From assembly GCA_965178125.1 (NCBI GenBank), contig OZ237737.1, positions 1,178,001 to 1,242,000 of the forward strand: DNA of 64,000 nucleotides. The letters are read 5' to 3'. A model generated the notes under the pieces. That model was given only the letters and a program-made list of their open reading frames with translations. It did not search any database and was not told the origin of the DNA. The position numbers and the translations under genes were made by a program. This document shows, one piece after another, positions 1-64,000 of the stretch (positions are counted from its first letter, which is position 1; each line of letters starts with the position of its first letter). The DNA comes from Bilabrum cf. latius. Taxonomy: Eukaryota.

Positions 1-3000
1 TTGGCCTCCTGCTGCCTCCTCAGCAGGTCCTGCACCACGGGCCAGCTCAGTGCCTCGGGCCACCCGTGCTCGCCCGTCTAGGCCATCAGCACTTGGTCGA
101 TCTCCACATCCTCGGCGTGGAACTCGGTCTCGCCACCCGACTGCGCCAGCTGCTTGGCCTTCCTCTGGGCCTTCAAGAACATCGGGTTCGTCTGCGCCGC
201 GGCACCCACCTCCAGATCATCTGGCGCATCCTTACCGCCGGACTTGCCACGGTCACCCGTGAAGCGCATCGACTTCTCGCGCTTGGCCTTCTCCTCAGCC
301 GACTCGCAGCTGAACGTGTTGCGGGCCACGTCCGGACACAGCGCATTGCTGAACTCGTAGAACAGCACGATGGCCAGGTACACCAGACTCGTGATCACGA
401 TGACCATCGTCAGGATCGCAGCGGAGTCGCGCTGGGCCTCGAAGCCCGGACGCTGCAGGTACTCCGACTCGAAGATGATGCCGGCCAGGCACACCAGGAT
501 GCAGCTGAACAGCAGCACAGCCTCCACCGTGTTGGCGTCGAAAGCCACCTCGCTCGCAAGCGTGCCCAGCGGCTTGCCCTCCTGCGCCCGCCTCCACAGG
601 TTGCGGTGCATCTCCAGCCGCTTCTGGTCTCGCAGTACCTTGGAGATGTTGTTGGCCAGCAAGCTGTGCAGCGCGTCGTGCTGCTGCTCCACCATCACGC
701 GATGCTGCTTCACCACGTTGTCCTTCGTGGCTTGACCCGCCATGTACGGCAAGTACCTCACATGCAAAGCGTAGCAGCAGATCAGCACCAGCAGAAGCAC
801 CGCCAGCTGGAACACAACGTTGCGCCGGAACAGCAGCGCGGTCACGGCGATGCAGAACTTTCGCGCGATGATCACCAGGTTCCAGTAGATGAAGTTGATC
901 TGGAAGTAGTAGTACAGCCGACCCACGCTCCTGCGCAGCAAGTTCGTGTTGGGCCCGGTCAGTGTGTCATCGCCCAGACCGTATGCCCGCAACAGCTGGT
1001 CCTCCTGCATCACGCGGTAGTTGCGCCACAGCAGGATAGACACGAACAGAGGGAAGCCCACCGTGTACACCACAAAGCCAATGATGGCGAACGGCAGCAG
1101 CTGCAAGTGCAGCCCACCGCGCTCGTAGCAAGGCTCAAACACGTCGTCCATATACAGCTTCTCGCTGCCGTCGGGGTTCAGCTCGGCGGGGTCCGTGGGG
1201 TTGCAGTTGAAGATCGAAAACACGCTCTGAGTCAGCATCAGGTACAGCACGAAGCAGCCCGTCGTGAACACAGACACAAGCTTGTCCATGTGCGTGCAGC
1301 AGCTCTCCTGCAGCTTGCGGCCCATGAGTAGCAGCTTGTTCAGAGACAGCATCACGTGCACCACCATCAGAATGGCCAGTGCCGCCACGGGTAGCAGCAT
1401 CAGCGCCGCCCACTTCAGACCGAAGCTCAGGCTCGGTACCATGCACTCGGGGGCCGTGATCTCCAGGTTGAGGTTGAACGCTGACAGGATCGTGAACAGG
1501 TCGCGCAGCAGGTTAGGGAAAGCAATGCGAGACGTGCTGAAGATGGCCAGCACCTGCATATAGTCCACGGCGATCATCAGAGTGGACAGCGTCAGGTTGC
1601 GCTTGTTCAGGTAGTACCCCAGCGAGCATGCCAGGATTGCACCCACCACGAACACCGCCACGATGATCTCGGGGTTCTGGGGGCACTTGGCGCACCGACC
1701 GGCCAGCTTGTAGTGGTTGGGGGCGCACTGCGAGCACCGCTCTCCGGCGTAGTTGCTGGCGCACATGTTGTTCCCCACGCACGCGTCCTGCGGCTCGCAA
1801 GCCAGCACCACATGGCACACATAGTCAGGCCCAAACCGTGCCCGCTCATCGGGGCAGTAGATGTTGCCCCGCTCCGAGTTCGCGGGATCCAGGTACAGCC
1901 ACCACCCAGCCGTGGCCACGGGCAGGTAGTCGTGGTCCTCGAAGCATGCGCCACCCTCGGGACACGGCACGCACAGCTCGCCGGCACGGCCGTAGAAGCC
2001 GGTGCCAGGGGTCACGCCAGCCTGGATGCCGGCCGCCTTGGCCATGCTCAGGGCAGTGGTCTGGGCCGCGTTGAGGACCGAAGGGGGAGGCGTCGTGCTG
2101 CTGCCGTTTGCGCCACCCAACGCCTGCTCCTGCCCAGCCTGCTGCGCTACAAGGCCCAGCAGCTCGTCCTCGCTGAAGCCGTACTCCTGGAGCGCGAGAG
2201 AGTACGCCTGGTCATACTGGCCCCAGTCCACAGAGCCGCCCTGGCACCTCGCCCAGTACACGAAGCTCGACCCAGTCGCCAGCGTGTTCTCGTCAGAGTC
2301 CACAGACAGCTGCACCGCCTGCGCTGCCACGTCCATGCTGATGTTCTTCAGTCCCACAGTGTCCCGAGGCGCATCGCACACCAACGCGCGACCTGCGGCC
2401 ACGGCACCTGGCGGGGGCCCGCTGCCAGAAGAGTCCTGGGCAGTGGCGCCATTCGATGCCCGGGCCTGCCTGGCAGCAGCATCGGCCGACACATCGCGCA
2501 CCTCGGAGCACTCCAGCCCGCCCACCATCACCGACAGATTCGCGGCCAGGATCGTGCCAGTGGCATCGGCGAAGTTCGCCCCGTAGAATGTCACCGTGTC
2601 TCCGCTGGCATCCGCCGGGAAAGGGCTCATGTAGTCGATGCGAGGCGGATCGTACGAAAAGTCGATCACCGATCCATCGGAATCCAGCAGCCGGTTGGAT
2701 CGCTGCGGGGCATCGTACCCGGTGAATACCGCGATGGCCAGCATCGTGCCGATCCCGTCCGGCATCGTGCACTCGATCTCGTCATGGCCCCAAGACGGCA
2801 CCAGCCCCGCAGGCTGGTCCTCCACGCACTCCTTCCAACGAGCCGGGAAGCGACCGCCATCGATGTCAGTAGGATCGAACACCGTGGCATCGCGCTGCTC
2901 GTTGTGCGCGATCAGCACACGGCGCCTGAAACGGTACAGGTAGCGCGCGCGGCGAGCCTGCGCCACGGGCGACGTGTCTGCGACTGGGACGGACTGCAGC

Positions 3001-6000
3001 TCCCTGCGGCTGCTGCCCGCGTCATCATCGCCCGAGATGCCGGGCACCAAGGCCTCGTTGGCTCTCTGCATACCAAGCGACTCGCCCCGGATCCGGATGC
3101 GGAATCCACCCGTGGTCGCGCAGCAGCCCAGGTTGGCGCCCAGCGGATCACCGCGGTCGTCGTATACGCCGAGCACCTTGGGAGGCTGGTACGACAGAGG
3201 CAGCGAGACGGGTGATTCCAGCCCGGCAGATGTGATCCACACGCGGTTGGTGCGGCCCTCCCCCTCGGGCACTTCCACCACCACGCGGCGGTGCGAGTGG
3301 GACACCACGCGGGCATAGCGAGGAGTCGGGTCGGCCTGGTCCGTGCCCACTACTCGCACAGCGACCGCCCCTGCAGCGTATGCCTGCTCGGCATCCAGCA
3401 CAGTCAGGGTACCGGAGCCCAGTGCCAGCTGAGTGCCTAGCCCGGAGTTCTCGCCAGCCTGCAGATCAGGCCTCCTTGCCTCCAGCTCAGACCACAGCAT
3501 GGCCGACTGAAGGCTTCCGATGCGACGCAGGTGCGCCAGCGCTGCGGGCGAGGCAAATGACCGGCCCTCCAAGGTGAGGTTCACCGGCACGCGGGTCGGG
3601 GGTGCGCCAGGGGTCAGCCGCTGCACCATACCAGATGGGATAGCAGCGCGATCCAGGGCCTGCAGCACCGGTGGTGCATATGCAAACCGAGCACCAGCAT
3701 CAACGGGCCTAGAGCTCTGGCCCTACACAGACACGCGCACCCACTTCTGGTCACCTGCGCCCTCAGGCAGCTGCACCACCAGGCGCCGATCCGTGTGCAT
3801 CACCACCTGCATGGGCAGGCACTCCTCCATCGTGGACGGTGCCACGCCGGGCTGGTCCCGTGCGCTCTGCGGCTGGGCACCCAGGTCGCACAACTCTACC
3901 ACAGCAGGCCCGAACACCTCTGCGGCCTCGGTGCCAGCTGCCACGCTGGCCCAGTCGCGGCCAAAGCCGTCACCGTCGATCACCAGCGTCACGCGATCGC
4001 CCGACTCGGTCGGGTACGTTGCAATGTCAAAGTCACCAGACCCAGACCCGCCCGTTCGGCTGCCATGGTATGCCTCGTCTCCAGCATCGGGGGCGCTCAC
4101 AGTCACGCTGTCCACGCGAGGCCGCATGTAGTCGAAGCGCGGACTGGGCGGGGGCGCAGGCGGGCCAGTGCCGCCCACACGGTTGTCCTCGGATGACGCC
4201 AGAGGACCACCGAAGCCAGCAGCAGATGACAACGAGAAGCCGTCCTCCAGAGGGGCCAGCTGAGGCAGGCCCACATCCATCACCAGTCGCCATCCAGTGC
4301 CCTGCCCAGCTGGCAGCTCCGCAGTCACGGCATCATCTGTCCAGGACACCACGCGCAGATAGTTCCGCGTCTCGGATGCACGCCCAGGGAACTGCTTCAC
4401 CAGTGCCAGTCGACCCAGAGGGGGGCTCAGAGCCTGTGTGGACTCGGCAGACGGCAGACCGACCGACCCAGGAGAGGCCGAGTCGGCGCGCCACACGCAG
4501 TCAGGGAAGCGGCAGCGGGCGCGGCAGCCAAGCACGGGACCTCCGCCGGGCCCGCCAGTGGGAGCCACCACGAACTGCTCGCATCCTGAAGACACGGCGC
4601 ACCCACCTGGCCACATGCGGGCGCCAGTGCCGGGTGAAGCAGGGTCGAACGTGCCAGAGCGGCACTGCGCGTCAATCGCAGACCAGTTGCCGAAGTCCTG
4701 TCCGCGGATCGTGATGAGAGTTCTAGCTGTTCCCTCGACGGGAGCGTCAGGCATGGCAGGGTCGGTCGCCACGAAGCCCACCTGTGTCAGCGTGGGCACT
4801 GGCGTGGACGATCCAGACGAGCCTGAGCCTGAGCCAGAGCCAGAGCCCGAGCCAGACGTGCTGCTGTCGTTGTTAAGCTACCGCGCGAACAGCAGCCGGC
4901 TCGATGCAGTGCCCGATGCCACTGTACCAGATGTACGGATCACAATGGGCGAGCTGGCGCTGCCGGGACCAGTCGAGCCGGCCATCCAAGCCACGGTCGC
5001 GGTGTCGCTGCCCTGCGATGGCACGCTCACCTCGCCCAGACGAGGCTCCCGGAAATGCACCGTGATGCGCTCGCCCGGCTGCGTGTCGGACAGCACCTGC
5101 ACGGCGCGAGACCGACCGAAGCCGCGCGGCACCTCGCATCGCACCGTGTAGATCTCATCACCGGGACCCACGGTCTCCACAGTCTGCGGAAGGTACGCGC
5201 GAGGCATCGCGGTGGGCGTGCCCGACTGTCCGATGCGGTGGTCGCACGAAGGGCACAACGACTCGTCAAGCGAGCAGTCACTGCAGAATGTCCGGCTGTC
5301 CGGTGGCGGGATGCACCGCGCGCCGTCCACAGTGATGGATGCCCGGGCTCCGAAGAAGCGACCGCGCAGCTCCAGCACGTACGTGCCGTTGGAGTACAGG
5401 ATGCTCTGCTCCTCCAGGCCGTCGCGCAGGGAAGGAAGCAGCTCGGCCGGGAAGTCTGTGAACTGCGCAGCCGGACTGCGGCGCCCAGTGCGGTCCACGA
5501 TTGTGATGTTGCCGCTGCGGCGGCCCTGCGTGGCCGCGCCGCGCTCCAGCAGCCTGTACGTGCAGTTGACCATCGTATGCTCCTTGGGCGGGTCGCACCG
5601 GAGCGAGCTCAGCAGGTCGGCCGGGGCAGCCTCATCGTCGTCCTCGCCAGTGGCCAGGGCATCGTGCACCGACCCATCCTCGCCCATCAGCACCACGCGG
5701 GGCACAAGGCCCAGATCCCGACCCTCGATCTCCAGCAGCAGCACAGTGTCGTCGCCAGCCAGTTTGCCCACACGGACAGCCTCAATCAGAGGCTCGTTGT
5801 ACCTCAGCTCGGCAGGCACGGAGAACTGGCGATCCACGCCGGTCACCGGCCCGGCCGTGCGAGGAGTGTCATCTGGTCCAGTCGACACGACCAGGTCCAG
5901 AGGGCCTCCCTCTCCAGCCGGGAGCTGCACACGCACCAAATGCCTCTGGCGGTACCACGTCTCCGTCACCCTCCATGCATCGGGCTGCTGGGCAGCACCG

Positions 6001-9000
6001 CCGAGCGGGTTGGGGGCATCACGAGACACGCGCGGGTCCGAAGTACTGCTGAACACGGGCTCCATGATCACGCGCCGCAGGAACCGCTCTCCGCTGCGCA
6101 GTGCCGGAGCATCGTCCGCGCCGGTCTCTTCATGCACCCAGTAAGACCGGATGGGGAATCCATACCCAACAGGGATAGGCAGCTGTCCCCCAGGGGGAAC
6201 CACCCCGTCCTGCACAGGCTCGCCCGCCGCCTCCGCAGCGACAGCAGCCCGCCTAGCATCATCTGAGGCCTTGGCCGATGTGACCAGCACGGCCTTCTGG
6301 GCATCATCCAGCACCTTGCCGCTCGCATCCACAGAGAAGTTGCCGAACTGCATCGACACGGTGCGGTTGGGAGATGCATTGGAGTCGATCCGGTGAGCCG
6401 CGTCCGTGAACAGCACAGCATCTGGCAGCAGCACCACCCCGTTCAGCACAACGTCCACACGGGCGGCGGGGTCGCGGAGGCCAAAGTCCCGGCCGATGAT
6501 CTCGATCGGGACACCGCCCGCAGTGGGCACGTCCTCCACTCCCAGGAACACCTGCACAGAACCACCGGCCCCAGCGGCCGCGGCCTCCTCCGCAGTCACC
6601 CGACCATCCGGGCTCACGGACCCGATGTTCGGAGCAGCGTATCCAGCCGCGGTGTTGTTGCTCACACCACCACCAGACGGCACGCCCACGCCTCCAGCGC
6701 CGGGCCCGACGTACCCACCCACGCCCACAGGCGCGCGAGGATCCGACGGCAGCGACGCCTGCCCCTCCACGCTCACGATCCACCTCACGGACGCTCCCAC
6801 TCCAGGAGCAGTCACGCACCGGATCATCGTGTGGCTCATCACCTCGCACTCAGTTGCCGTGTACTCCTGCCCAGATGGACCGTACGTGACGTAATCCAGG
6901 AAGTCGCGCCCGTACAAAGACGTGACTGGCCCGAAGTTCTTGCCGCGGATGTGCACCATCTGCCTGCCGTCCGTCGATGCCTGCCTGGCTCCTGGCCCAT
7001 CCACCGAGTGGATCTCGGGCACGCCGTAGTCCGTGGCGGGCTGCACACTGGTCTGGTTGTCCACCACCACGGTCCACCGGAGGTCCTCGCCAGCACCCTC
7101 CGTGGTCATGCACGTCACCTCAACATGGGCCACACTCACGTAGCAGTCCCTTGCAGTGAACACAACTGGCGGGGGCAGCACGGTGGATCCGTCAGACGAC
7201 GTGGATCCCACCTCCTCGTCCTCGCCAGCCAGACTCGTGAACGGCCGCGAGTACGTCACCAGCTCGAGGTCGCCCATCTCGCCATCCACACCGGTACCGA
7301 AGTTGTCGCCGAGCACCACCACCTTCTGCCACCCGCGGGTGTCGGCATCGCGAGCACCGCTGACGATCACCTGAGTGCCGTTGATGCCTTCGATCACACG
7401 AGGGAACTGCGTGATCACCGGAGGCGCGTAGCTCACCTCCCGCAGCAGGGCGTTGGATCGCTGGCCAGCGATCGTTACACGAACTGCATGATCCCTTCCT
7501 GTGCCCGCCTGTGTGAAGCACTGTGCCTGCACAGATGCAGCGGTCACGTTACATAGCACGCCCTCGTAGTGCATCCACCACGACCCCTGCACCTCCTGTC
7601 CGCCATAGCTCAGCACAGGCGATGCACCACCGAAGGCAGCACCACCCAGCGGTCCCAGCTGGTGAGCCTCCACAGAGACTACCTGGCCACCGCGAGTTGG
7701 GCCACCGTCCCTGCCAGGACCGCCCACTGCGACCAGCACTGGGGGCCTGTAGTCCGTCCGGAGGAGCTGCTAATCGTAGGAAGTAGGAGATGTGGGGATG
7801 TCCGAAGGCAACCCGCCCACCTCCACTCTCCACAGATGCCCGGTACCCACGCCTGCCACAGATTGGCACCGCATCTCGACGTGAGCCACGGTCACCCGGC
7901 ACTGCATGGCCTCGTACAGGAAGCCTTCCAGAGGGGCACCGGCAGGGCCGTACATTGCGGTCAGAGGCTCCATCACACCGGTGCGCGTGCCGCGGCCCAG
8001 GTTGCTGCCTCTGAGGATCACCTCCTCGCCGCCAGTGGTGGACAGCCGGCGGGTGCGCTCCGCCAGCAAGTCATCCGTCACCAGCGGGTCCTCGGATAGA
8101 GTCCCGTTCCCGATCCCACGAGACACCTGCTGGGCCTTGTGCTCAGCGAACACCTCCCTCACCCACCCAAGGGCCACCACCTCCACAGACTACAAAGAAG
8201 GCAGCGCGAATCCGATCTGAGTCACCATGGGGCGCGACACCTGGCCCGCGATCTCCACCTCGAACGACAACTCGCTGCCGATTCCCTCGGGCATCTCGCA
8301 CTCCACACGGGAATGCGAAGCCGTCACAGCGCAGTTCCGCAGCGTATACACCACTGATGATCCATCCGACGTGCGATACGCAAACTCGTTGCCAGTAGCA
8401 TGAGCGCGCACGATCGGCACGGACGGCCACCCAACGGGTCCGAAGAAGTCTCCGTCGATCACGATGCGCCCCCCGCCAGCCGTGGGCAGCACCAGTCCGC
8501 TCGACACCAGGTTGTCAGACGCAGACGCGGCGGCGGTCACGCTCCCGATCACAGGTACCTCGTACGACGTCTGGAACTGGTCCTCGCCATCCAGCACAAC
8601 CGTCTCAGACACACTCAAGTCGTCCACCACGCGGATCGTCCACACGAACCCAGCGCCCGTGCCCACTGGAGCCTCGCACGTCAGCCTCGTGTTGCCGCGG
8701 GCAGGAGCTCCGCCCTCCGACGGGTCCCGGTCCACGTCAAGGTCGGTGGCCCCAATGGTGCACCCCGGCGATGTCAGATCCATCGTGCCCGGGAAGCCAG
8801 TCTCGCTCGGCAGCAGCGCGCGCTGCATGGTGGCAGTGACAGTGGCGCTGCCGCTGGCTGTGCTGCGGCGGTACGCAGTGGGTCCGATGTTGCTGCCGTC
8901 GATGATGGTCACGTTGCCAGCTGCCCGCTGCGCCGCGGTTGTACCCCTGGTATCATGGCGAGGACCAGACACCTGGATCAGAGACATGTCCTCCTCGTTC

Positions 9001-15517: not shown

Positions 15518-15520
<3 letters not shown>

Positions 15521-15563: not shown

Positions 15564-15845
15564 CTCCTCCGCATCGCTACGTCGCATCTGAGCCTGCTCC
15601 TCGAGCGGGTCCTGCGCCCACCGAGCGACCTCAATCTCAGAGACCTTGCTGGCCTCACCAACCCACTCACGGTCCTTTGGGAGGCCTGGTCTTTGCTCTA
15701 GCACTGGGAATCATTGCCCATGATTGTGGGCGAGCATCCGGGGTTCCCTGTCGGCCTTCGGCATTTGCTGCATTTACTACAGACCCCACTGCTACTCGCT
15801 GTCCGCCGTCATCTCGAGGGTATGCGATAACGAGTGCTTTTGGAA

Positions 15846-18800: not shown

Positions 18801-19784
18801 GTCGATGCAGCCATGGAGCTGTCACGGCAGACCAAGGGGGAGGCGGGTGCCAATGCCTCGTAGTCTTCGGGCGGTGCGAGGGTCGAGATAATTGAGGAGT
18901 CTGCGAAAGGGGTTGAAGCGCAGGCACTTGCCGCGAAGCACGGAACGGGCGGGAGTGGCCAGGGCGGCCTTGAGTCCCTTGCGGCTCGCGGTAGCGTGGT
19001 CGAGGCCAGGGTCACTGGTGCCAGGCAGACACCGCTGGGAGAGTCAGGTGGAGTGGTGCCCGGCCGTGGCAAGGAGGTGGTTGACGCGCAGAGACCCAGG
19101 ACTCGCAGGTGGGGCACTGCCTCTGCACGGAGCAGCCGCACCGCAGCCGGCTAGACCCCCGCAAGCGGCTCTGGGACTGACCGTTTCGGGCCGATCGCGG
19201 CTTAGGTGATGCTGCCGTTGCTGAGCCCGAGACGGGTCACAGGCCTGGGTGCGGTGGACCTGCTAGGTCAGGACGACGAGATGCTGGCCCAGCTGATACG
19301 AACATGCTCGGTGCTGCAGGAGTGCGCGCAGGGGGCCCCAAAGGAGCACAGGATGTCCATTTTTGCGCGGTTCGCTGCGCTGTTGTGGGAGGTACGGTCA
19401 CACGCATCGGCTGCCGTGAGAAGGACTGTAGTGGGCGGGTTTGCGTCTTGCATGATAGCTGCAGTATCTATGGGGCTGGTGGCAAGCACCTCCAGCGGGC
19501 ATGAGGGCATGCCGGGGTCGGAAAGCACGGTGGCTGTGCTGGGAGCCGTGTACGAGTGGGCTGTTCACGTGGCTAAGAGGGACAGAGATGAGGCGTGCAG
19601 GGTGGCGGCACGGGAGCTGGCAGCGTCGCAAACGCTGCGGCAATGCGCAGAAATTACGAGGCAGGCAGCCGCGATGGGCGGGTCGCTTGGAGTGGGGCTC
19701 GGGGCTTTGTCGGCGCTTGGTGCTGCCGGTGGCAGCCACGGTCTCATGGGAGCACCCGTCGCTCGCCTGCTGGCCAGCATGTAA
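15846..19784 (+). CDS. TELO2: TELO2/Tel2-like protein (TTT complex subunit), ~1,300 aa; start uncertain
   Basis: One frame through TAGs at 16101, 16293, 16359, 16392, 18066, 18342, 18861, 19152 and 19203, ending at TAA 19782-19784. Tel2-like segments recognised by eye: SLPELIRR...LLGLQDRFALPGFAAWRIAALTSLAV..P...FYADERSVAQRAECLDLVVDAAMELS; TRRWG; DRFGPIAA.VMLPLL...DLLGQD..MLAQLIRT. Alternative starts are ATG 15903, or ATG 15720 with a possible intron 15820-15915. Confidence 0.75.
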
Positions 19785-38821: not shown

Positions 38822-38918
38822 GTAGTGCTGCTGTTCATGCAGAAAGCACCAACAAGTATGATTACGGGGCGTTCATGCAAATGCAACAACAAATAGTACG
38901 GATGCGTAGCGCAGCGCG

Positions 38919-42800: not shown

Positions 42801-42856
42801 ACGTCACCCGGCAGGCCCACGCGGAGGCTCTGCTGGCTTCTGCCCACGGTTTCTGA
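39804..42856 (+). CDS. Secreted glycoside hydrolase family 31 (GH31_u1-like alpha-glucosidase), ~950 aa
   Basis: Signal peptide MKGLLGLLASLYCTTHVLA; introns 39885-39987 and 40346-40439. Motifs ARFTILT..LVRME..FEDRPT, DWYLFGHG, GIPIDVWITDMDWH, WRDWQQG (nucleophile), RYPTGFSGD (acid/base), ELHTRWVQWG, VYEDDG. One TAG at 41405 inside SVSY*WSNDIVG. Ends TGA TGA. Confidence 0.92.
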
Positions 42857-52700: not shown

Positions 52701-55700
52701 CAGGACAGTTTCGTCAGCTGCCGTGCCGATGTGGTCGTACGATCGACCTGAAATCGAGCAGATCGACCCGGAAGAAACGTTTGCGGGCGAATTTGATCTC
52801 GGGCTTACCATTATAGGCAGCAACTTTGGCACGAATCCTGCTCACCTGGGAAACATCACCGTAGTATCGAGGGAGGATGCTGCCCGCGCGGCAACGTGCA
52901 GTGGAAGCCCTGTTTGGCACAGTCCGACCATGATAACTTGCACAGTGCCTCACATGCCCGCGACGATGCCGCACGGCGGTATTCAAGTGTTCGTTGAGAT
53001 CGAATCCCAGCTTTCCATTGCCGTGGGCTCCGGTCAAAGCGCCTTTGTGCTGGGGAGGCCTTTGGTTGAGACCATTTCACCCACGACCGCAGCCGGGAAC
53101 GATAGTATCCTCATCCTTGGGGAGCGGTTTGGCGACAGCGATGACGATATTGAGTCTGTGTCTGTAGATGGGCAGGAATGCCTGGCCTGGGAGCGTCGAG
53201 GTGCAACCGCCATCCAGTGCATCGTCCCGTTCGAGTCTGAGGCTCGCAAGGCTGCTGGCGCGCTGGATACGTCGGCATTAGTAGGCCTGGATGTCGCAGT
53301 GCGAACCCGAGGCGGCCTACAGAGCGAGCCTAACGAATTTTTTGGGTATGCATCGGCCTCGGACGAACCATTTAACGCACCCTTTGGCGTGGTCGGATAC
53401 CGCGAGCAAAATTCCGTCAGCCTCATCAAGTTGCAGTGGCTCTACACTGATAGTGACCTTACCAGGTCAAGAAACCTGCGATTCTACCAGACTGCTCAGG
53501 AGTTTTACGTGTACGCCTATCCTTTGGACGAACGGCTAGTCCAGGATCTGGGTTTCTTTTAGCAGAACGCTAGTCTCGGAATGCAGGAAGGTGATGCAGA
53601 CCAGCCATCTGCGAGAATTCCCCACTCGATCTTGTTCTCGTCCCCTCCGACAGATTCTTCCGGAAACCAGCTAAACTCGACATCCGGCTTTATCGTCCAG
53701 AGGTACGATGCTCGGGTGGTTAGCCAGACGCCTCTTGACAGGTACACAACCACGGCGAGGTATGAGGTGGACGTGCCGGGGTTCCAGGCCCGGCCGTACA
53801 TCTTTCAGGTTGCCGCGAGCAACAATGCCGGCCAAGGACCCATGTCTCATCCCAGCGCAATCGTGTTTGAGGCGTGCGCCTCGAACCAGTTCCTAGCTAC
53901 ACACAAGGCCGCCACTGAGCCTGAGAGGGCAGTCTGCGTTGCATGCCCGGACGGTGCGTTCTGCGGCGGTCTTCCGAGCGAGAACGTCACGGCGCAGGCA
54001 GGCGCATGGCGCGTGCCATGGTCAAGCGAGGGTCTCTTGTTCGAGAACTGCCCTGAGCCTACAGTGTGCCAGGGGACTCCGACGGACATCGACGCCATCC
54101 TTGACGCTCTTGGGGGCACAAGTGGCGATGAGAATACCCCTGTAGAAGCAGAGACGGATGCTTTAAATTCTACATCGGCCCGCGAGCTCGGCGCGAGGTC
54201 TTTGACCGGCGACTGGTCTGAGAATGCGGCAGCAAGATCGCTGCAAGGTGTTCCGCCTGCCGTAGAGAGCCTGCAACGGTTCGGTGGGCGGCGAGGCAAC
54301 TACTCTGAGGCGGCACTGGTGAACGCGCTGCTTGCAACGCTGCAGCAGCACAGCACTGACCTAGAGGTATTCAGGATTCAGGAGCACCTGTCTTGGCACA
54401 GTGTCGACTTGACTAGAATGCCGTACCCTACTTTAGTGCTTGATCCCGAAGAGCAGGAGGGCTGCACGGAGGGCAACTTCGGTACGCTCTGCACCCAGTG
54501 CTAGCTCAACTATGCGCGAAGCGGCACGTTTCAATGCCGACGTTGCGCCGATAGGCGCTATATCATCGTCCTAACCGTGATTGCGTTCTGCGTGCTGATT
54601 GGCGCTATCAGTTTTGTTATCCGCGGCACGCTGATGACCCGCCAGCGCGAGGGCAAGGTCGAGATCATGGTGATCAAGATCGGGTTCTCGCACCTGCAGA
54701 CAGTCGCGCTGGCCTCGTCCTTTGAGCTGTCCTGGCCGAAAGAGATTGTCAGGTTCTTCGACGTGGTGGACACGTCCAGCAGCATATCGCCAGACATTGT
54801 CAGCGTTGATTGCCTGTTCCCACGAACCGGTACTCTGGGATCACGCACGTTCTTTCTTACTACCTCAATGATCCTCGTGGCGCCCATCGCCTTCGTTGCG
54901 GTCGTGTCTATCTTCTGGTTGGGCCGCTTCACCTGCACGGCGGCTGGCAACTCTGGTGCCACGAAACGGATCATCGCCCGGTCCATCGATATGGCTGCAT
55001 CGAGACAGCTGGAGAGGCAGGCCCGCGAGCGCGAGGAAGTGCAGATGGAGTCCAACCCGATGAATCCGACAGGTTCGTCGAGGAGCGATCTGGCGCAATC
55101 GAGCGCGGACTCAGAGGCGCCTCTCAGTAACTTGCTTGATCGGCCAGCTGCCAATGCATCCACCAATCGTTCGCGAACGTCGTTCGAGCCTCGGGCCCCT
55201 GCAACGTCCAAACGGAGTCTGCTAGGCGGCGGAACAAGTGCACAGGGCAGCCCGTCGCGCGGCGTGCAGCCGCTCAAGGGTCTGCGGGCGTCGAGTCCTG
55301 ACTCGAAGCGGGCAGCGTCGCAACCGGGCTCCAAAGCGGGTTCATCATCGTTCGCGTTAAGCGCAGCTCCGCCTCCGCGCAAGCCACGCCCACCTCCAGG
55401 CAAACCCACCTCCAGGTAGCGATCGGGCTCAAACTCCTCATCAGGCAGCAGCTCGGCCAAGTCGGCCATCATGAAAGTTTCGCTTGAACAGGCAATTGAC
55501 CTCGCCGAACAAGCAGCTAGGGCGCTAACGGAGCCGCAGAGCACCACCTCGAGGAGCAAGAGCGTGAGGCTGTCAAGCAAGGGTGCGAGGCGATTCCGGA
55601 GTTCGATTCGACGCGCAAGCAAGATGTCGAGGTCTTTGTAGGGTCATGGTGCTGGAGACAACGGCCTCAAAGAAAATCCGATCCATCTGGCCCTGGCCAA

Positions 55701-57222
55701 CTCGCGCCAACCCGGGACTCCCTTGTCCTCTTCATCCCAGTCACCGCTGTTCGACCATGCGTCACCCGTGAATGTCGGCGATTCCGAGCCTCTCTCGGAG
55801 CAGGACGAGCTAGCGAGGGGCGAGACTGACCTGGTGTCTCGTGTGAGCGAGCTGGCCATCCGTGCAGGCTTGGGGCCTGTCGAAATCGCTGAGCTGGTCA
55901 ACATCGCGCAGGCACACTTCAAGAAAGCGGCCACTTGGCAGCACACTCTGGAACGCATCATGGTAAGCAGCCTCGTGGTGGGATTCCTGGTGCATGCCAC
56001 CGTATCCCGGGCAGCTCTGCTGCTATTCACGTGCATTGGGGTGGGCGATGTGGAGGGTGCCTACGGCCCAGATGGTCAGCCCATTGACCAGGCTGAGGAG
56101 AGGCGCGTGCTGCTCCATGACATGGCCGTGGATTGCAGCAGCAACACCGCACTCACCTTCCGATACGCCGTGGGACTGCCATTCTTCGTGCTATACTCGA
56201 TCGGGGTGCCGCTTCTTGTGGGCACCCTGCTGTATATCTACAGAGAAGAACTGCAAAATCCAGCGTTTGGCCGCCGATTCTACTTCCTTTTCGCTGGTTT
56301 CAGAACCAAAGCGGTGTACTGGGAGAGCGTGGTGGCCCTTCGTAAGGTTGGTATTGCTGTGATCGCTGTGTTCCTTCGGCCCCAAGGCATTGACGTGCAG
56401 GCGTATTGCGCCCTGATCCTAGTGTTCGTCGGTGTCGTGGTGCACTCGAGGGCATGGCCGTACCAGAGCCAGGTGCTGAACCTGCTTGAACTGCAATGCC
56501 TGTGCACGCAATTCGTGACGTTCTACTGCGGGCTGTTCTTGATCTCGCCCAGCGTGGACGAGGCCGGCAAGGAGACAGCAACTTCGGTGATGCTGCTCGC
56601 CAATTCGTTCTGTCTCATCAGCATTGCCACCGTGCTGATCGGCCGGCAACTCGCCGCCCAGCTGCACAAGTGCGACCTGTTGAACCCCAATCCCACTTTC
56701 CCAAGCGACCGAACGTGGTCGTAGTGGTGCTGCAGCATGTGCTTTGCGATATGCCTGCCGTCCGAAGAAGAGCTCAGAGCAGCATCCACGAAGTAGGTGC
56801 AGAAGGAGAGCAAGCTCACTCGGTACTTGACCACGGCGCCCCAGGTCACCTTGCTCAAGGCGGGGCAGGGCGACTTACGCCGGGACGATCTCGGCGACGA
56901 GGCCGGCGAGGTGGCCAGCGACCAGACGTCTGGAAGGCAGGTCCGGGCCGGTTCTTTCTCTCGGAAGAGCCCGGGTCGCGCGGCGGGGCGAAGATCGTCA
57001 AACGTCCACTCCATGGCGCGGTCGCCGTACGCTGCTAAAGCTGCTGTGGCGCGGCTGTCGACGAACCAGAGGGGAAAGGGGTCTGGTAGCAGGTCGTAGA
57101 GCGTGATCGACAGGGTGAAGTCGATCGGTGGCTAGGAGGTGGTGAGCCCGATCGTTTCAGCCGCGGGACGAGCTGAAGAGGTCGCATCGTTCCGCGAGCG
57201 TGCGAAGCAACAGCGACCTTGA
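43748..57222 (+). CDS. Giant multipass membrane protein (~4,460 aa): signal peptide, Gly-rich region, ~20+ IPT/TIG repeats, FN3-like domain, Cys-rich region, multipass TM domain
   Basis: Start ATG 43748 (or 43730); intron 44036-44130 (GTAAGA...CGCAG); then one frame through 31 TAGs to TGA 57220-57222. IPT motifs (P.i.sv.P..G...GG..iti.G.nfG...v.vGG..C); FN3-like YIFQVAASNNAGQGPMS; TM region with FLFAGF....YWE.VV.LRK and ..AWPY....LN.LE. Confidence 0.88.
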
Positions 57223-57666: not shown

Positions 57667-60600
57667 TCACCCGCGCGAGCCTGAGCCAGACCCCGTGCGG
57701 CCGGCCCTCAGAGCTGCGAGCGACTGCGAACCGTCTCCACCCACCAGGCTCCTCCCGGAGCCCGTGGACCCACCCCCGTCTCCAGACGCTCCTGCCTGCG
57801 TCGAAGTTGGCGCAAAGACGCTGCGTCGAGACCGGCGCTGTCCCCTTCTTCCCATGGGGTTCCTGGACATGCCGCCCGCCGCAGCGGCAGCCGCCGCCTC
57901 GATCGACGACTGCGGCTTGGACTGCCGGTTGACCTCCGCCGTGTCTGCCTCCTTCCTCGCCTCCTTGGCCTGGTCGGTCAGCGAGCGCACCTGCTGCTGC
58001 AGCGTGCGGTACTGGTCCCTGAAGATCGACCACTGCTCCTTGTCCGGCGGCGTGGCCATACCATCCATGGCCTCCTCGGCGTCAAGCGAATCGGCCAGCA
58101 GATTGCGTTGGGAAGCCCTCGCAAAGACCGGGTTGGTCTGCTACTCGATCACGCCCACGATCTGATCCTCTTCGGTCGGCAGGCCAGACTCCACATCGCC
58201 GCTCTTGCCGGGCCGACGGGCCCCCATCCCGGACCCGCGACGAGCCTTCTTCCCCGCCTTGGCTAGTTTTGCGTTCTCAGCCTCCGAAGCCGACGCACAG
58301 AGTGTGTAGATGTCGTACGCAAATACCGCGAAGAAGTAGATCAGCGTGCCGAAAATGACCACGAGGGTCAGCGCGATGAGAGTGTCCCTGTACCCAGCAT
58401 AGTACTCACCCGTCTCGTCCGTGTTAAGCTGGCCCGAGCTGAACATAATGCCGCTCAGGTTAACCAGCACGGCAGATCCCAGCAGAACGGACTCGATGGT
58501 ATTGTAGTTGATGGCGGCCCCCATCACTGTGCCACCGAACTGCACGAGCAGGTTGGGTGACTCGGTCAGCCTCTGGAAGCCCTGTCCGTACGTGGCCCGC
58601 TTCCTGCCCTTCTGCACCACCGACTTGATGGTGGCTGCCAGCTTGGAGTGGGGCGAGCTGGGGTCGAATGACAGCCGCTTGTGCTGCCTGAGCGTGTCCT
58701 CCATCTCGTCCGGTGACATGAAGGGATGCACCCTAGTCTGAGCCGCGAAGGCCGTAAACATGACCAGAAGGCTCATGGACAGCTGCATCACCGGGTTGCG
58801 CACGAACAGCAGTGACGTCAGCGCGAAGAAGAACTTGCGAGCAATCAGCGCCAGCATCCAGTAGATGCGGTAACCGATGGGCTTGAATGCGAAGTACATC
58901 TTTGAGTACCTCCTGCGGACCGTGTACGCGTTGGGGTTCGTCACGGTGTCTTCGCCCTGCTTCATTGCGCGCAGCAGCTGGTCCTCCATGACGAGGTCGT
59001 GGTTGGTGTACAGCACGTAGAACACGATCGCAGGGAAACCCAAGCCGTAGACCAGCAGCGTGACGATGGCAGGACCCAGAAGGGTCCGATGGATGCCACC
59101 AGGCTTGGAGCACGGCTCGAACACCACCTGTAGGTACAGCCGCCCGTCTGCGTATGATAGATCAGAAATGAAGAAGAGACCAAAATTGGAGAGGCTGTAC
59201 AGCCGAAGACAGGCAAAACACGCTGGGATCCACCGAGACGAGCTCACCTGGCGGAGTAGTAGGCTGCGATGATGTGAGGATGAAGGAAAGACAACACGTT
59301 TACAAGTAACGTAGCCAAGTAAATCCAATAAAAACAAAAGAAAAAGAAAGATGAAGAAGAAATAAGTGCACAAAGGTGCACCGTGGTGACCCGGGGGTGC
59401 AGCATCGAAGCATCGTAAAAGGCTAGACTCAAAGCGACTCACTTGGCAGTTGAGGACATCAAAGGACGTCCGAGAGAGAATGAGATACAAGATGTACCCG
59501 CCAACCAGGAACATAGAGACGCACCTATTCAGGTGCTGGCCAAACCACGCCTCCGTCCGTGTCTTGCGCTTGATGCACCAATCATATGCCGAAATGCTGA
59601 CATACACGAGGGTTAGGCACAGCAACCCAGCCACCGGCAGCATCATGATGAACATCCACTTGGACATGTAGCTAAGATCGGGCACGGTGCACTCGGGCGC
59701 GGTGATCTCGATGTTGAGGTTGAAGGCGGACAGGATGTGAAGAATATCCTGCAGCACGGGCGGCCACGGCACTCTGGCCATGGTGTACAAAGAAAGTACC
59801 TGAAAGTAGTCCATGCCGAGCGTTGTGAGAACCAGGTTGATGTTGTACTTGGCCAGGAAGAAGACGAACCCCACGCCACAGATCATGATGATGATGAATA
59901 CTGCGATCAGGATCCACGGGTTGTCGGGGCACTCCACGCATTCCCCGGCGCGGCGGTAATAGCCCTCGTCACACGCATTGCACCGCCACTCTGGACCGAC
60001 ACTTCGGTAGCCCGTGGCGCAGAAGTTGTCCCCGGTGCACGCCCATATAGGGTCGCAAGGCACGACGCACTGCGCACGGTCTGGGATCCTGAACAGCTCG
60101 GGGCACTCTGAGAGCTGGTCCGTTTCGTTGAGGTTGTACCAGCCCTCCTGAGGCCTTGGCTGATGGAAGAGCACGTTGCGGTACTTGAGCTGCCAAGGCC
60201 CATCGTCGTCATCGAGGTCGATGGTGAGGTAGCGCGGGTCCTGAAGGGACGCGCCGAGGCTGCGAGCGTTCTCGGGGGACCGAAGCTCGTCCTCAGCTTC
60301 TTGTCCTTCACCGCCCTCACCCTCCTGCAGCATCCTCCTCTGCTCGTTCTCCTCCTCAAACTGAGCCTGCAGCAGCTCGATCTGCTCCCGCAGGCCGATG
60401 ATCTCCACCTCGCGGCTCGCGATAAGATCGGCATGAAGCTGGGGCACTAAGCGCGTGTGGCCATTGCAGTCGGCGCCTCTAGGGCAGGGCAGGCACAGCT
60501 CCGAAGGGTCGGCGAAGAACCCTCGGTCGCAGGCAAAGAGCAAAATGTCTTCGGACGTACCGTTCTGCCCAGCTGCTGACACTTCGATCGCCTTGTAGCC

Positions 60601-63600
60601 CACGGGCAGCTCTGGAATAAGGCAAGACACAGTGGGACGGAAGCCGACCGCCCCGTCTCCCCTCCGGATGGTTTCACGGGCGCGAATCGTGGTGTTGGGC
60701 AGGCACGACTGCCCGTCGATGCGGAGCTCCAGCCGCCTCTCCTCTGGGGTCCAACCCTGTCGGTCCGCATCTTCATCGGAACCGAAATTGCGGCCCAGGA
60801 AACGAGCCGAGTACTGGTCCTCCATGCGCGCTAGCAGGCCGTCCTCGTCCACCAGCTCGCCCGTGACCTCGAGACCAGACGGATCCGCACCGTCGATCTG
60901 GGGCGGGTTGTAGTCCCACTGAGCGTAATTGGGGCTGGTGCGGTTGGCACCGTTCACCTCCACGACTGTAAGCCGCACAGCACGCTCTCTTCCAATACCA
61001 GGTGCCGAGTCAAACACGATCGACTCCATGTCCTGCTGCCGGATGTCGATGCGGGGGTCTCGTCGGGGATAGCACCCGGACACGCGCGGATCGTTCGGGA
61101 ACAGCCCATCCACTGTGCTTGCGCTTGTGATGCAGTCTTTCCAGAAATCCACACGGAGCCACACGATGGGCAGGAAAGGAGCCACGGCCAGCGGGACGCC
61201 CTGCCCCGTCGAGAGCTGCTCGGCTGCAGCCTCGGCCTCGGCGCCCTGCAGTGGTGGAGGCGGAAGGTTATCGGCGAAGATCGTCACCACATCACCACCG
61301 TCAGTCGACCCTCGGTTGGGCCGCATCCCGCCGTCTTGGATCCAGGGCGAGTTGTACACGAAGGAGGGCAGCAGGTCCACGCCAGGGGGCAGCGTCGTGC
61401 GGTTTCCCAGCGATGCCTGGTCGCCTTGCTGCAGGTTACCTGCCACGAAGAGCCGGATGTCGCGGGTACCCGCCCCGATGGGCACGGTGAACATGACTTC
61501 GTCGTGCCACCAGTGCAGGATGGATGAAGCGGCGATCTCTCCCTCGCCCAGGAAAGACTCCCTGTTGTCGCAGATGGGCACTCGCGACGGGCGCAAGCGG
61601 TAGGTGTGGGACAGGAACACGCACAGAGCGCTGGGTCCGGCCGCAGAGCCAAAGGGCCTGCCAAAGTTCCTCCCAAGAATCCGTACGGCGAATCCACCCG
61701 TTGTGTTGCCATGCAGAGGCACTCGGCTGGCAGGCGTAGTGGCAGACTCCCACCCAGACAGCAGCAGCCCCTCCCGGCCCATGATGGCAGTGGACAGCCC
61801 GGGGATCGGCTGGTAAAGCTCTAGACCCGAGACGACGGGAGGATCATAGGAAGCGGCGCCAGCCGATATCACGTAAGGGGCATTGCCTATCTTGATGCGA
61901 ACGTCAATGACCTTGCCCATACCCTCCGGTAGGACGCACTCGAGCTCCTCGTGGGAGACCCAGAGCACGGCCCCGCAGCTAACCCAGGCAGACCCAGCCC
62001 CCGTGAACGAGCGCATCTCGATGATCCGATCCCTGAACATGGGGCCCCCGTCGGGAGCCCGCAGCGAGGCCGAGCCACCTCCCGAGCCGCCGCCGGTGCC
62101 TGTTCCGCTACCGGTCCCGTTCACAACAGTCACGTTGCCGTCTCCTCCGGAGCCGCCATCGCCGCTCTCTTGAAGCACCACGAGCGGTCCTCCAGGAAAC
62201 CCGCCGGATCCGTCTGCGGCGCCAAGGTTGGAGCCGAAGATCTTGATCCTTGCGTTTCCTTCGGTTGGTAGACCCGTGGCAGCGACCTTCGGGGCCACGT
62301 CAGTGATGCTAGCGGAATCGTACGATGCCCGGAGGAACCGCGCACCCGGTCCGGATAAGCTCGGCAGCTGCCCGGCAACGTCCACGTCCACTCGAAGCAT
62401 GGCCCCGTGCCCTGCCGGCAGCCTCACCTCGATAAACTGATGGCTGCGAGCCAGCACTCCGGGCTGCGTGACCAGAGAAGGCGGCGCAAGCGGAGCACCG
62501 TTGCCATCGCAGCTTCGGATCTGGTCGTGGGCCCCAAACAGGATCACAGGGCAAAGGCCCAGGTTGTTTCCCACGATTCGCAGAACACCACCTATGGTGG
62601 GCAAACCAGCGCCCTCCACAGAGGCAACCTCGGTGGCGACCGGCCGCCCCGCGTCTTGGGCAATGCCGCCGGTGCCCTAACCGGAGGACGGGCCGCCCAG
62701 CAATTCTGCTCGGAGGATCGAGGGCGGGCTGTACTGGATCGAGCCGCCCACTCTAGATCGCTTCCAGTCAGTTCCAGTCCACGTCTGCACGGTCACAGGC
62801 ACCGCAGAGCCCTCCCCCTCTGGCAGACGGCACCGCAGGGATACGGTGCCGGTGGTGGTGGCAAGAGCCGCGGTGGCAGGGTCATCCACGCCGCCGTCCG
62901 ACTCTCCGTTGAACAAGGATGCCCCGTTGGCGCTGTACAGGCGGCAGACCCTCTCACGACCGGCCCTCCCCACCAGCACCGCCACTCGCTCGCCCACGTT
63001 AAGGTTCTCCACCTCCATGGTGATGTCCTCGCCGCCAATGGTGGGGACTTCAGCCGGAGCGTTCAGCTCGGAAATGTCCGGAGCCACGGACTGGAAGATG
63101 AGTCGCTCGCTAAGCTGCACCAGGGCCGCTGGGTTTGGGCCTCCCGTAGCTCCGGGATCGACGTACTGAAGAGAGTTGATCTGCACCTACACCCCGCCCT
63201 CTGGTGCAGTGGTCAGCAGCACGATTTCGTCGTCCGTCCACGAAATCACCTGCAGGGTGGCCTGCTCCGGAAGAGAGATCGACTCGAACTGGCGGAAAGT
63301 GAGGAAGATGCTCGGAGCAATCGGTGGTTCGAACGTCCCGAAATTTTGCCCATAGAGGGTCAACACACGAAGCCCGCAGTAATTGTTCGCTCCAGAAGGC
63401 TCTGGGCAGCCGAGGGAGGATGTGTTCGCGATGAAGCTTAGCTCCCCAGGGCGCGAGGGCGAGTTTAGTGCCAGGTAGTCCAGCCTCGGGTCGTGGTAGT
63501 CGAACAAGGACCCCGCACCATCCGTGATGGGGTCGCTGAACACAGCCACGTCAGCTGCTCGGTCCAGGGCCACGCCTCGGGGGTAGGCTGCGATCCTCAC

Positions 63601-64000
63601 CGCGCGGTCCAGACCATGACTCGCCGGGAGATCAAACACGACCTGGTGCCTGCCATCCTCTAGGATCCGCGTGGATCGTGGCTGGATGAGGGCACCCTGG
63701 GACGAGTAGTCGGCCGGGTTGCCGAAGGCCACAGCCACATCGGAGGCCGCATGGAGCAGGCCGAAATCTCGTCCCACTACCGTGACTGTGGATGGGTCCG
63801 TCACAGTGTCTGGGAACCAAGACGCGGGCGAGAGGGACTCCACGCTGGGCCGCGCGTACGACACGGACCCAACGCCTACATCCGAGGGGAGACTGCTCTG
63901 CTCTGCCACCGTCACAACAAACACGAGGTCCCTGCCGACTCCAGGCACCATAGTCGCTCGGATTTCCGTGTGGGAGACTAGCTCAATGTCAGTGGCCTCG
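57667..64000 (-). CDS. Giant IPT/TIG-repeat multipass membrane protein, paralog of the 1-14871 gene (5' part outside window)
   Basis: One frame from 64000 through TAGs at 63187, 62677 and 58141 to TGA 57667-57669. Introns 59264-59442 and 59148-59247 flank a 16-nt exon at 59248-59263. Shares ILSAFNLN.EITAPEC.VP.LS, EDQLLRA and (Q)TNP.F with the 1-14871 gene. Confidence 0.9.

What the first reader, a model, noticed from the sequence alone, without database searches (positions are those of the whole stretch)
1..64000. Variant nuclear genetic code: TAG is a sense codon while TAA and TGA remain stops
Seen in the sequence: 76 in-frame TAGs (manual count 8+9+1+14+6+3+1+31+3) across all nine genes on both strands. 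Each is followed by same-frame continuation of recognisable domains, including conserved housekeeping genes: the GPx N-terminal KSIYD motif lies upstream of a TAG, a TAG splits the GH31 catalytic barrel, and TAGs separate the two SMC6 head halves. All eight visible termini are TAA (19782, 20020) or TGA (33052, 38819, 38919, 42854, 57220, 57667). I found no internal TAA or TGA and no frameshifts. Established: in most recoded eukaryotes (many ciliates, diplomonads) UAA and UAG are reassigned together. UAG-only reassignment is rare; reported cases include Iotanema (Gln), an uncultured rhizarian (Leu) and some ciliates. Inference: this GC-rich organism does not look like a ciliate, so it may be an independent origin. 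I cannot tell whether it is already described.
Basis: partly seen in the sequence, partly recalled or inferred. Interest (0 to 1): 0.97.

Follow-up and report, generated by a model that had tools for sequence, protein, structure and literature searches.

The report
Eukaryote that reads TAG as glutamine
This stretch comes from a GC-rich single-celled eukaryote whose genes use the stop codon TAG as an ordinary codon for glutamine while TAA and TGA still end genes, a rare kind of genetic-code change that seems not to have been reported for this sort of organism.

Summary
If TAG is read through, seven frames open to 832-4391 aa (standard-code maximum 1511). These frames hold 72 in-frame TAGs and no internal TAA or TGA. 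All eight visible gene ends are TAA (2) or TGA (6). Pfam domains lie on both sides of TAGs. Spliced contigs from three other public runs remove GT..AG introns and match the DNA letter for letter, so 33 of 33 covered TAGs are kept. This rules out editing and assembly error.

TAG most likely means glutamine:
- 5 of 5 closest GH31 homologues have Q at the TAG site.
- In a syntenic metagenome relative (L002) that also reads TAG as sense, 15 of 36 aligned TAG sites face Q. Ordinary Gln codons face Q in 45%.
- The log-likelihood for Q exceeds that for Glu, the next best, by 10-16.

TAA is not sense: 0 seen against about 14 expected.

One weak clue points to a Cafeteria-like stramenopile. The tRNA and eRF1 could not be examined because no genome is held. 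I found no published match (seven searches). I rate it a new member of a known code variant (NCBI table 15).

The parts
3..12740 (-). Giant cadherin + IPT/TIG surface protein with a C-terminal multi-pass membrane module. The frame runs off the window at its low end. In-frame TAGs at 11306, 10643, 8192, 7772, 4880, 3725 and 80. A probable upstream exon with a further TAG lies at 13509-13511.
15831..19784 (+). TEL2-like gene (Telomere_reg-2 domain). 9 in-frame TAGs (16101, 16293, 16359, 16392, 18066, 18342, 18861, 19152, 19203). Ends in TAA at 19782.
20020..20763 (-). Glutathione peroxidase with a Cys (TGT) active site. Two exons with one GT..AG intron. TAG at 20725-20727 in exon 1, after MSKSIYDHEIEM. 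Ends in TAA at 20020-20022.
21481..33054 (+). 3857-aa surface protein frame with weak cadherin-like and TNFR-type Cys-rich matches. 14 in-frame TAGs. Ends in TGA at 33052.
33471..38863 (+). SMC6-like mRNA, as covered by a spliced contig of run X5. Intron 34497-34634 (138 nt, GT..AG, in frame). 6 in-frame TAGs (33545, 33830, 34166, 35711, 36455, 36650). TGA at 38819.
38865..39690 (-). Small gene with no Pfam match. Intron 39299-39400. 3 exonic TAGs (39566, 39002, 38951). TGA at 38919-38921.
39988..42884 (+). GH31 glycoside hydrolase mRNA. A further 5' exon is joined from 39884. Intron 40346-40439. One TAG at 41405-41407 inside the TIM-barrel domain. TGA at 42854.
43672..57222 (+). Giant IPT/TIG-repeat protein (about 37 TIG-like units found across this gene and two paralogues). 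5' exon 43672-44035, intron 44036-44130. 31 exonic TAGs. TGA at 57220. It has no counterpart in the syntenic relative L002.
57667..63999 (-). Second IPT/TIG protein with the same C-terminal membrane module. The frame runs off the window. Probable in-frame intron at about 59140-59435. 3 TAGs (63189, 62679, 58143). TGA at 57667-57669.

Best explanation
The window is nuclear DNA of a GC-rich, gene-dense, intron-poor eukaryote in which UAG has been reassigned from stop to glutamine. UAA and UGA remain the terminators. This is the pattern of NCBI table 15.

Shown here:
- TAG lies in frame in every gene.
- TAG is kept in spliced transcript contigs.
- TAG evolves like a glutamine codon.
- TAG is used like a non-preferred Gln codon, commoner in weakly biased genes.
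- At least two related environmental or culture lineages share the trait.

Inferred, not shown: decoding by a tRNA-Gln with anticodon CUA. Its C34 pairs only with G, which would explain why UAA is left alone. I also infer an eRF1 that has lost UAG recognition but kept UAA and UGA, as proposed for Iotanema spirale.
For: (1) Frames. 72 in-frame TAGs against 0 TAA and 0 TGA in seven frames of 832-4391 aa. In 18,432 coding codons: TAG 71, TAA 0, TGA 0.

(2) Real genes. Pfam GH31, SMC_N, Telomere_reg-2, GSHPx, Cadherin and TIG domains, with TAGs inside or between domains.

(3) Transcripts. Contigs of runs X5, X6 and X7 (two studies other than that of the probable source X1) skip GT..AG introns that X1 keeps. 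The X5 pieces listed lie on the exons with 0 other letters. 33 of 33 exonic TAGs in the laid 20 kb are covered by them.

(4) Glutamine.
- 5 of 5 closest GH31 homologues (51-85% identical) have Q at the TAG column.
- Against the syntenic relative L002, 36 TAG sites face Q 15, S 4, two each of E, A, R, D and P, and one each of H, M, K, I, G, V and T. One more site is TAG opposite TAG.
- That is 42% Q, against 45% for ordinary Gln codons and a background Q of 4.2%.
- A BLOSUM likelihood puts Q first, by 15.9, 11.9 and 10.2 log units over Glu for 36, 28 and 18 sites.
- The codon opposite TAG is CAG 12 times and CAA 3 times.
- A 92%-identical relative has Q opposite TAG 36650.

(5) TAA is not sense. 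0 seen against 14 expected from the CAA/CAG ratio, P about 7e-7. L002 has TAG 35, TAA 0, TGA 0 in 5503 codons.

(6) Codon usage. The TAG share tracks the CAA share across 7 genes, Spearman 0.86, p 0.014.

(7) Termini. All 8 termini are TAA or TGA.
Against: - No tRNA gene is in the window or in L001/L002, and no genome is held. The tRNA-Gln(CUA) and eRF1 parts of the mechanism are therefore untested.
- 21 of 36 aligned TAG sites face residues other than Q. One close relative has S opposite TAG 36455 and another has E opposite TAG 18342. This fits ordinary divergence at variable sites, but it is not proof of Q at every site.
- The internal TIG-repeat test could not single out Q. R, S, D, E, T and Q led, and the controls showed low power.
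- Eight termini are too few to exclude occasional use of TAG as a stop: P(0 of 8) = 0.17 if TAG ended 20% of genes.
- The tail of the small gene after its last two TAGs is not conserved in L002.
- The runs taken as RNA are only guessed to be RNA by the tool, and X5 is flagged 'probably DNA'. Their RNA nature rests on the spliced joints and gene-wise depth.
- There is no peptide evidence.
Confidence: 0.87

Rival explanations
1. Dual-meaning code: UAG is read as glutamine inside genes but can still terminate near the 3' end, as in Condylostoma or Blastocrithidia for other codons.
For: Only 8 termini were seen, so 0 TAG stops is weak evidence (P = 0.17-0.43 if TAG ended 10-20% of genes). The small gene has TAGs 10 and 27 codons before its TGA, and the tail beyond residue 234 does not align with L002.
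Against: The giant TIG gene has TAGs 29 and 41 codons before its TGA. L002 has TAGs in the C-terminal part of the second TIG gene with conserved sequence on both sides. All 8 termini here are TAA or TGA, and the long L002 frames end in TGA.
Confidence: 0.07
2. TAG is a sense codon for another amino acid (glutamate, serine, leucine, tyrosine or lysine).
For: Some close relatives have E or S opposite a TAG. The TIG-repeat columns favour polar residues in general.
Against: Q is opposite TAG in 15 of 36 sites, and no other residue in more than 4. The likelihood for Q exceeds that for E by 10-16 log units and exceeds the others by more. 5 of 5 closest GH31 homologues have Q. CAG, one transition away, is the commonest partner codon.
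Confidence: 0.04
3. No code change: the TAGs are artefacts, pseudogene lesions, edited sites, or lie in unrecognised introns.
For: Two of the 76 stop-to-stop TAGs do lie in introns (39365, 44053).
Against: An independent DNA run and the spliced contigs carry identical letters. The X5 pieces lie on the window without a single other letter, and 33 of 33 covered exonic TAGs are kept. Only TAG, never TAA or TGA, interrupts frames. A relative at 70-80% DNA identity keeps the frames open and has its own TAGs at other sites.
Confidence: 0.01
4. A rival for the mechanism only: UAG is read by the ordinary tRNA-Gln(CUG) through a first-position mismatch together with a weakened eRF1, without a dedicated tRNA-Gln(CUA).
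For: From knowledge, not from a call: near-cognate tRNA-Gln is known to read UAG at low level in standard-code organisms. A 2026 preprint abstract in the listing says the same. TAG is a minor codon here, 8.7% of Gln-type codons.
Against: 31 TAGs in one 4363-codon gene would need near-complete read-through at each. From knowledge, the described UAG reassignments have cognate suppressor tRNAs. Not tested here.
Confidence: 0.1

Closest known systems
Iotanema spirale (Fornicata) nuclear code: UAG = Gln, with UAA and UGA as stops (Panek et al. 2017, PMC5304391, passages read; PMC9161772, passages read)
   Same: The same codon, the same amino acid, and UAA kept as a stop. It is also a non-ciliate. 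UAG is a minority codon.
   Different: Iotanema is an anaerobic caviomonad, and its code change is reported as specific to that one lineage (PMC9161772). The window's organism has a glutathione peroxidase and giant cadherin/TIG proteins of a family shared with Cafeteria. It occurs in runs labelled algae or protist metagenome and has at least two relatives with the same trait. Identity with Iotanema was not tested directly.
Ciliates with UAG-only reassigned to Gln: Protocruzia tuzeti and two phyllopharyngean lineages (McGowan et al. 2024, PMC11687900, passages read); NCBI table 15
   Same: The same reassignment. The same inferred logic of a CUA-anticodon tRNA and altered eRF1.
   Different: The window is 60% GC, carries nine genes on one 64-kb piece with genes up to 13 kb, and has introns of 94-138 nt. 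From knowledge, phyllopharyngean macronuclei have gene-sized chromosomes and ciliate genomes are usually AT-rich. No ciliate marker could be tested.
Rhizarian exLh (UAG = Leu) and Scotinosphaera (UAG = Ser) (PMC5304391; PMC11687900 discussion, passages read)
   Same: UAG is uncoupled from UAA in a non-ciliate nuclear genome, and terminators are only UAA and UGA.
   Different: A different amino acid. Leu and Ser score far below Gln here.
UAR = Gln codes (many ciliates, Hexamita, oxymonads, ulvophytes, Amoeboaphelidium)
   Same: Stop-to-glutamine reassignment.
   Different: In those codes TAA is also Gln. Here TAA is absent from 18,432 coding codons (14 expected) and ends two genes.
Code-15 phages (crAss-like, Lak)
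   Same: TAG = Gln.
   Different: The window is eukaryotic: spliceosomal introns, SMC6, TEL2.

Membership tests
Nuclear code with UAG = Gln and UAA/UGA = stop (NCBI table 15 pattern) | In-frame UAG in conserved protein-coding genes, with homology continuing on both sides | tested here: met
   72 TAGs in seven frames. Pfam domains and orthologue alignments run across TAGs.
Nuclear code with UAG = Gln and UAA/UGA = stop (NCBI table 15 pattern) | UAG sites correspond to glutamine in relatives | tested here: met
   5 of 5 closest GH31 homologues have Q. 15 of 36 sites face Q against L002, compared with 45% for ordinary Gln codons. Q leads by 10-16 log-likelihood units.
Nuclear code with UAG = Gln and UAA/UGA = stop (NCBI table 15 pattern) | UAA and UGA are not sense codons | tested here: met
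   0 TAA and 0 TGA in 18,432 coding codons. 14 TAA would be expected if TAA were Gln. 0 of each in 5503 L002 codons.
Nuclear code with UAG = Gln and UAA/UGA = stop (NCBI table 15 pattern) | UAG is not used as a terminator | tested here: inconclusive
   0 of 8 termini are TAG, but the power is low.
Nuclear code with UAG = Gln and UAA/UGA = stop (NCBI table 15 pattern) | UAG is present in mature mRNA (no editing) | tested here: met
   33 of 33 covered TAGs are kept in spliced contigs with 0 other letters. The runs are only guessed to be RNA.
Nuclear code with UAG = Gln and UAA/UGA = stop (NCBI table 15 pattern) | A tRNA-Gln with anticodon CUA | not testable with these tools
   No tRNA in the window, L001 or L002. 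No genome is held.
Nuclear code with UAG = Gln and UAA/UGA = stop (NCBI table 15 pattern) | eRF1 N-domain changes (GTS, NIKS, YxCxxxF) | not testable with these tools
   The eRF1 gene is not in the window and no genome is held.
Ciliophora | Ciliate genome traits and marker genes | not testable with these tools
   No rRNA or other RNA family is in the window. The composition (60% GC) and gene layout argue against it, but they are not defining.
Bicosoecid-like stramenopile (Bigyra) | Phylogenetic placement by rRNA or many proteins | not tested
   One clue only. The sole named hit among 13 for the C-terminal module of the cadherin/TIG protein is Cafeteria roenbergensis (30% identity over 612 aa). 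The nearest named GH31 hits are scattered over Amoebozoa, choanoflagellates, green algae and a foraminiferan data set.

The most novel reading that the evidence does not exclude
An undescribed clade of GC-rich heterotrophic flagellates, possibly bicosoecid-like stramenopiles, reassigned UAG alone to glutamine independently. It has at least three sequence-distinct members: the window, a 92%-identical relative, and the L001/L002 lineage. If so, this would be the first nuclear code change in that supergroup. The nearest homologues of its giant genes are uninterrupted ORFs, so standard-code relatives seem close by. A genome and transcript data already exist for it.
Probability: 0.4. Interest if true: 0.85.

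Novelty: new member of a known kind. Interest (0 to 1): 0.74.

Why it matters
Nuclear code changes outside ciliates are few. Cases where UAG and UAA have different meanings are fewer still. The passages read list these:
- Iotanema, one rhizarian, Scotinosphaera and some ciliates (PMC11687900).

Another lineage would add an independent data point on how UAG is uncoupled from UAA. This one is GC-rich and its stops are mostly TGA. It evidently has DNA and transcript data, and it has relatives with and apparently without the trait.

It would allow a direct comparison of eRF1 and tRNA-Gln between recoded and standard-code relatives.

In practice, any annotation of this genome with the standard code will break most long genes. 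The relatives' proteins in public collections are already fragmented at TAG sites.

Tried and rejected
- **Whole genome:** none is held, so no tRNA, eRF1, rRNA or genome-wide stop tally was possible.
- **tRNA and Rfam scans:** the window, L001 and L002 gave nothing.
- **Solved GH31 structures:** the TAG column is ambiguous (T, W or F) at 20-35% identity.
- **TIG-repeat profile** built from the window's own repeats: 12 TAG sites fall in variable columns and the controls fail (Q ranks second, K fifteenth). I rejected it as uninformative, except that it disfavours hydrophobic residues, Cys, Gly and His.
- **SMC6 homologue search for taxonomy:** 1 hit only, a 92% relative.
- **TEL2 full HMMER search:** 110 hits. 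Distant columns at TAG sites are variable. One close relative has E opposite a TAG.
- **Protein atlas on the GH31 C-terminal ORF:** no taxonomic help.
- **Earlier findings of this scan:** three look-ups found nothing.
- **TSA prefix of the nearest EukProt GH31 hit:** two literature searches found nothing.
- **Sequencing runs:** no listed holder is on record as RNA. RNA status is inferred from the joints.
- **Contig ends:** they fall 28-63 nt after three TGA stops. This is only a weak hint of transcript ends.
- **Literature:** searches found no report of UAG = Gln in a stramenopile, a bicosoecid or any GC-rich non-ciliate other than Iotanema. Subscription journals and supplements were not searchable.
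Full report
**What is in the window**

The 64-kb window is 60% GC. Under the standard code the longest frame is 1511 aa. If TAG alone is read through, seven frames open to 4391, 4246, 3857, 2110, 1861, 1317 and 832 aa. Reading TAA through changes nothing. Reading TGA through lengthens many frames (maximum 1806 aa), as expected in GC-rich DNA, but gives nothing comparable.

Within the seven frames the in-frame counts are TAG 72, TAA 0 and TGA 0, apart from the terminal codon. The two other frames of the same stretches hold TAG 181, TAA 81 and TGA 775. So TAG is tolerated in frame about as often as out of frame, and TAA and TGA are excluded.

Pfam finds these domains:
- GH31 domains
- SMC_N head halves
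- a TEL2 (Telomere_reg-2) domain
- glutathione peroxidase
- cadherin repeats
- many IPT/TIG repeats

TAGs lie inside or between these domains.
- KSIYD lies before a TAG in GPx.
- A TAG lies in the GH31 barrel.
- TAGs lie between the SMC head halves.
- The eight termini are TAA at 19782 and 20020, and TGA at 33052, 38819, 38919, 42854, 57220 and 57667.

My count reproduces theirs. There are 76 TAGs in eight stop-to-stop frames. Two of these are intronic. One more lies in GPx exon 1 and one in a probable upstream exon of the first gene.

**It is a eukaryote, and the TAGs are in the transcripts**

Thirteen public runs hold the 33200-42900 stretch or part of it. I laid four of them on 33200-53199.
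- Run X1 is the probable DNA source. It covers the stretch colinearly with no joints at the introns.
- Runs X5, X6 and X7 come from two other studies. Their contigs skip 94-138-nt stretches with GT..AG ends: 34497-34634, 39299-39400 on the minus strand, 40346-40439 and 44036-44130. They also show two joints in 5' leaders.
- Contig boundaries follow gene boundaries, and depth differs by gene. I therefore take these runs as transcript assemblies, although the tool only guesses RNA and flags X5 as 'probably DNA'.

The X5 pieces lie on the window with 0 other letters and 0 gaps. All 33 exonic in-frame TAGs in the laid stretch are therefore kept: SMC6 6, small gene 3, GH31 1, giant TIG gene 23. This removes RNA editing, unrecognised introns (except for two TAGs that really are intronic) and assembly error as explanations.

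The genes do have a few short introns. Some are in frame and free of stops, so the long frames read through them.

**Which amino acid**

*GH31.* The GH31 TAG sits in a well-conserved block. The five closest homologues (51-85% identical, all environmental) have Q there. More distant eukaryotes have a different local motif.

*Syntenic relative.* A metagenome scan returned two contigs, L001 and L002, of a relative at about 70-80% DNA identity. The gene order matches: SMC6, small gene, GH31, second TIG gene. This relative also needs TAG read through. L002 has frames of 2555 aa with 12 TAGs and 1467 aa with 15 TAGs. Its long frames hold TAG 35, TAA 0 and TGA 0 in 5503 codons.

*Site-by-site comparison.* I aligned orthologues in both directions, which gave 36 TAG sites with a residue opposite.

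| Residue opposite TAG | Sites |
|---|---|
| Q | 15 |
| S | 4 |
| E, A, R, D, P | 2 each |
| H, M, K, I, G, V, T | 1 each |

- One further site is TAG opposite TAG.
- The Q share is 42%, against 45% for ordinary CAG/CAA glutamines in the same alignments. In well-aligned blocks it is 56% against 62%. Background Q is 4.2%.
- A BLOSUM62-based likelihood ranks Q first. It leads Glu by 15.9 log units over all 36 sites, 11.9 over 28 sites and 10.2 over 18 sites.
- The partner codon is CAG 12 times and CAA 3 times.

*Other relatives.* A 92%-identical SMC6 fragment from another run has Q opposite one window TAG and S opposite another, the latter in a variable tract. An 84%-identical TEL2 fragment has E opposite one TAG. 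These non-Q cases are what ordinary divergence gives.

*Repeat test.* A test based on the window's own TIG repeats had too little power to add anything.

**TAA and TGA**

TAA is absent from 18,432 coding codons. If TAA were glutamine with the A/G ratio of CAA/CAG (0.166), about 14 would be expected (P about 7e-7). TAA ends the TEL2 and GPx genes, and TGA ends the other six.

Eight termini cannot exclude occasional termination at TAG. A dual-meaning code therefore remains a minor rival.

**Usage pattern**

TAG makes up 8.7% of glutamine-type codons. Its share per gene runs from 2.6% in GH31 to 15% in the giant TIG gene. It tracks the share of the non-preferred CAA codon (Spearman 0.86, p 0.014, seven genes). 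Panek et al. reported a similar pattern for the reassigned UAG of the rhizarian exLh, where UAG was the rarest codon for its amino acid in ribosomal protein genes (PMC5304391, passages read).

**Mechanism**

The reassignment itself is shown. How it is decoded is inferred from established knowledge.
- A tRNA-Gln with anticodon CUA would read UAG but not UAA.
- eRF1 would have to stop recognising UAG while keeping UAA and UGA. For Iotanema a T-to-G change in the GTS motif was proposed (PMC5304391 and PMC9161772, passages read).

Neither gene is in the window, and no genome is held.

**Who is it**

There is no rRNA or other RNA family in the window. The nearest named GH31 relatives (34-47% identity) are scattered over a foraminiferan data set, choanoflagellates, Amoebozoa, green algae, a chlorarachniophyte and a labyrinthulomycete.

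The C-terminal Cys-rich plus multi-pass membrane module of the cadherin/TIG protein gave 13 hits. The only named one is a Cafeteria roenbergensis cadherin/TIG protein, colinear over 612 aa at 30% identity. From my own knowledge, Cafeteria genomes are also GC-rich and intron-poor. A bicosoecid-like stramenopile is therefore my best guess, but it is a weak one.

All 13 homologues are uninterrupted ORFs of 2531-6249 aa. That would be improbable (1e-4 to 0.03) at even the lowest TAG density seen here. These relatives probably use the standard code, and the change may be confined to a narrower clade.

Public proteins of the closest relatives are fragmented exactly at window TAG sites.

**Comparison with what is known, and novelty**

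From the passages read (PMC11687900, PMC5304391, PMC9161772), the known cases are:

| UAG meaning, with UAA kept as stop | Organisms |
|---|---|
| Gln | Iotanema spirale, Protocruzia tuzeti, two phyllopharyngean ciliate lineages |
| Leu | rhizarian exLh, one ciliate lineage |
| Ser | Scotinosphaera |

The code variant itself is therefore known (NCBI table 15). The window's traits do not fit a caviomonad or a ciliate well:
- its composition and gene layout
- its GPx gene
- the protein family it shares with Cafeteria
- its occurrence in algal and protist culture-like samples

This is not proven. Seven full-text searches found no report for a stramenopile, a bicosoecid or another GC-rich non-ciliate. 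Subscription journals and supplements could not be searched.

**Verdict**

I file it as a new member of a known kind, with interest 0.74.

Noticed in passing
window 43023-43175: A short intergenic element between GH31 and the giant TIG gene has contig depth of about 1750-4000 in run X1, against 11-15 for the flanks, with many variant copies. It is a high-copy dispersed repeat of unknown kind.
   Followed up: partly
window 44047-57222 versus L002 10271-10681: The 13-kb giant IPT/TIG gene has no counterpart in the syntenic relative. There GH31 and the second TIG gene are only about 410 nt apart. This is a gain or loss of a whole giant gene between close relatives.
   Followed up: partly
window 3-2693 (minus) and 57670-59148 (minus); P0113: The giant cadherin/TIG proteins end in a Cys-rich region plus a multi-pass membrane module with no Pfam model. 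A Cafeteria roenbergensis protein and a dozen environmental ORFs of 2500-6200 aa share it colinearly. It is an uncharacterised surface-protein family.
   Followed up: partly
window 34497-34634, 39299-39400, about 59140-59435: Introns of 138, 102 and about 290 nt are multiples of three and free of TAA and TGA. Stop-to-stop reading therefore passes through them unnoticed, and one contains a TAG (39365).
   Followed up: yes
window 38819-38921: The convergent SMC6 and small gene have stops only 98 nt apart. Their transcript contigs end at 38863 and at 38857/38865, so the 3' ends abut or overlap. The 3' untranslated regions appear to be only about 30-60 nt.
   Followed up: no
window 20560-20660 (minus): The glutathione peroxidase uses cysteine (TGT) at the active site, not a TGA-encoded selenocysteine. 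TGA shows no sign of recoding here.
   Followed up: yes
window 38057-38096: An acidic GAG/GAC-rich tract in SMC6 attracts many unrelated contigs in all four runs (depth up to 250, many loose ends). This is a low-complexity pile-up, not a feature of the gene.
   Followed up: no
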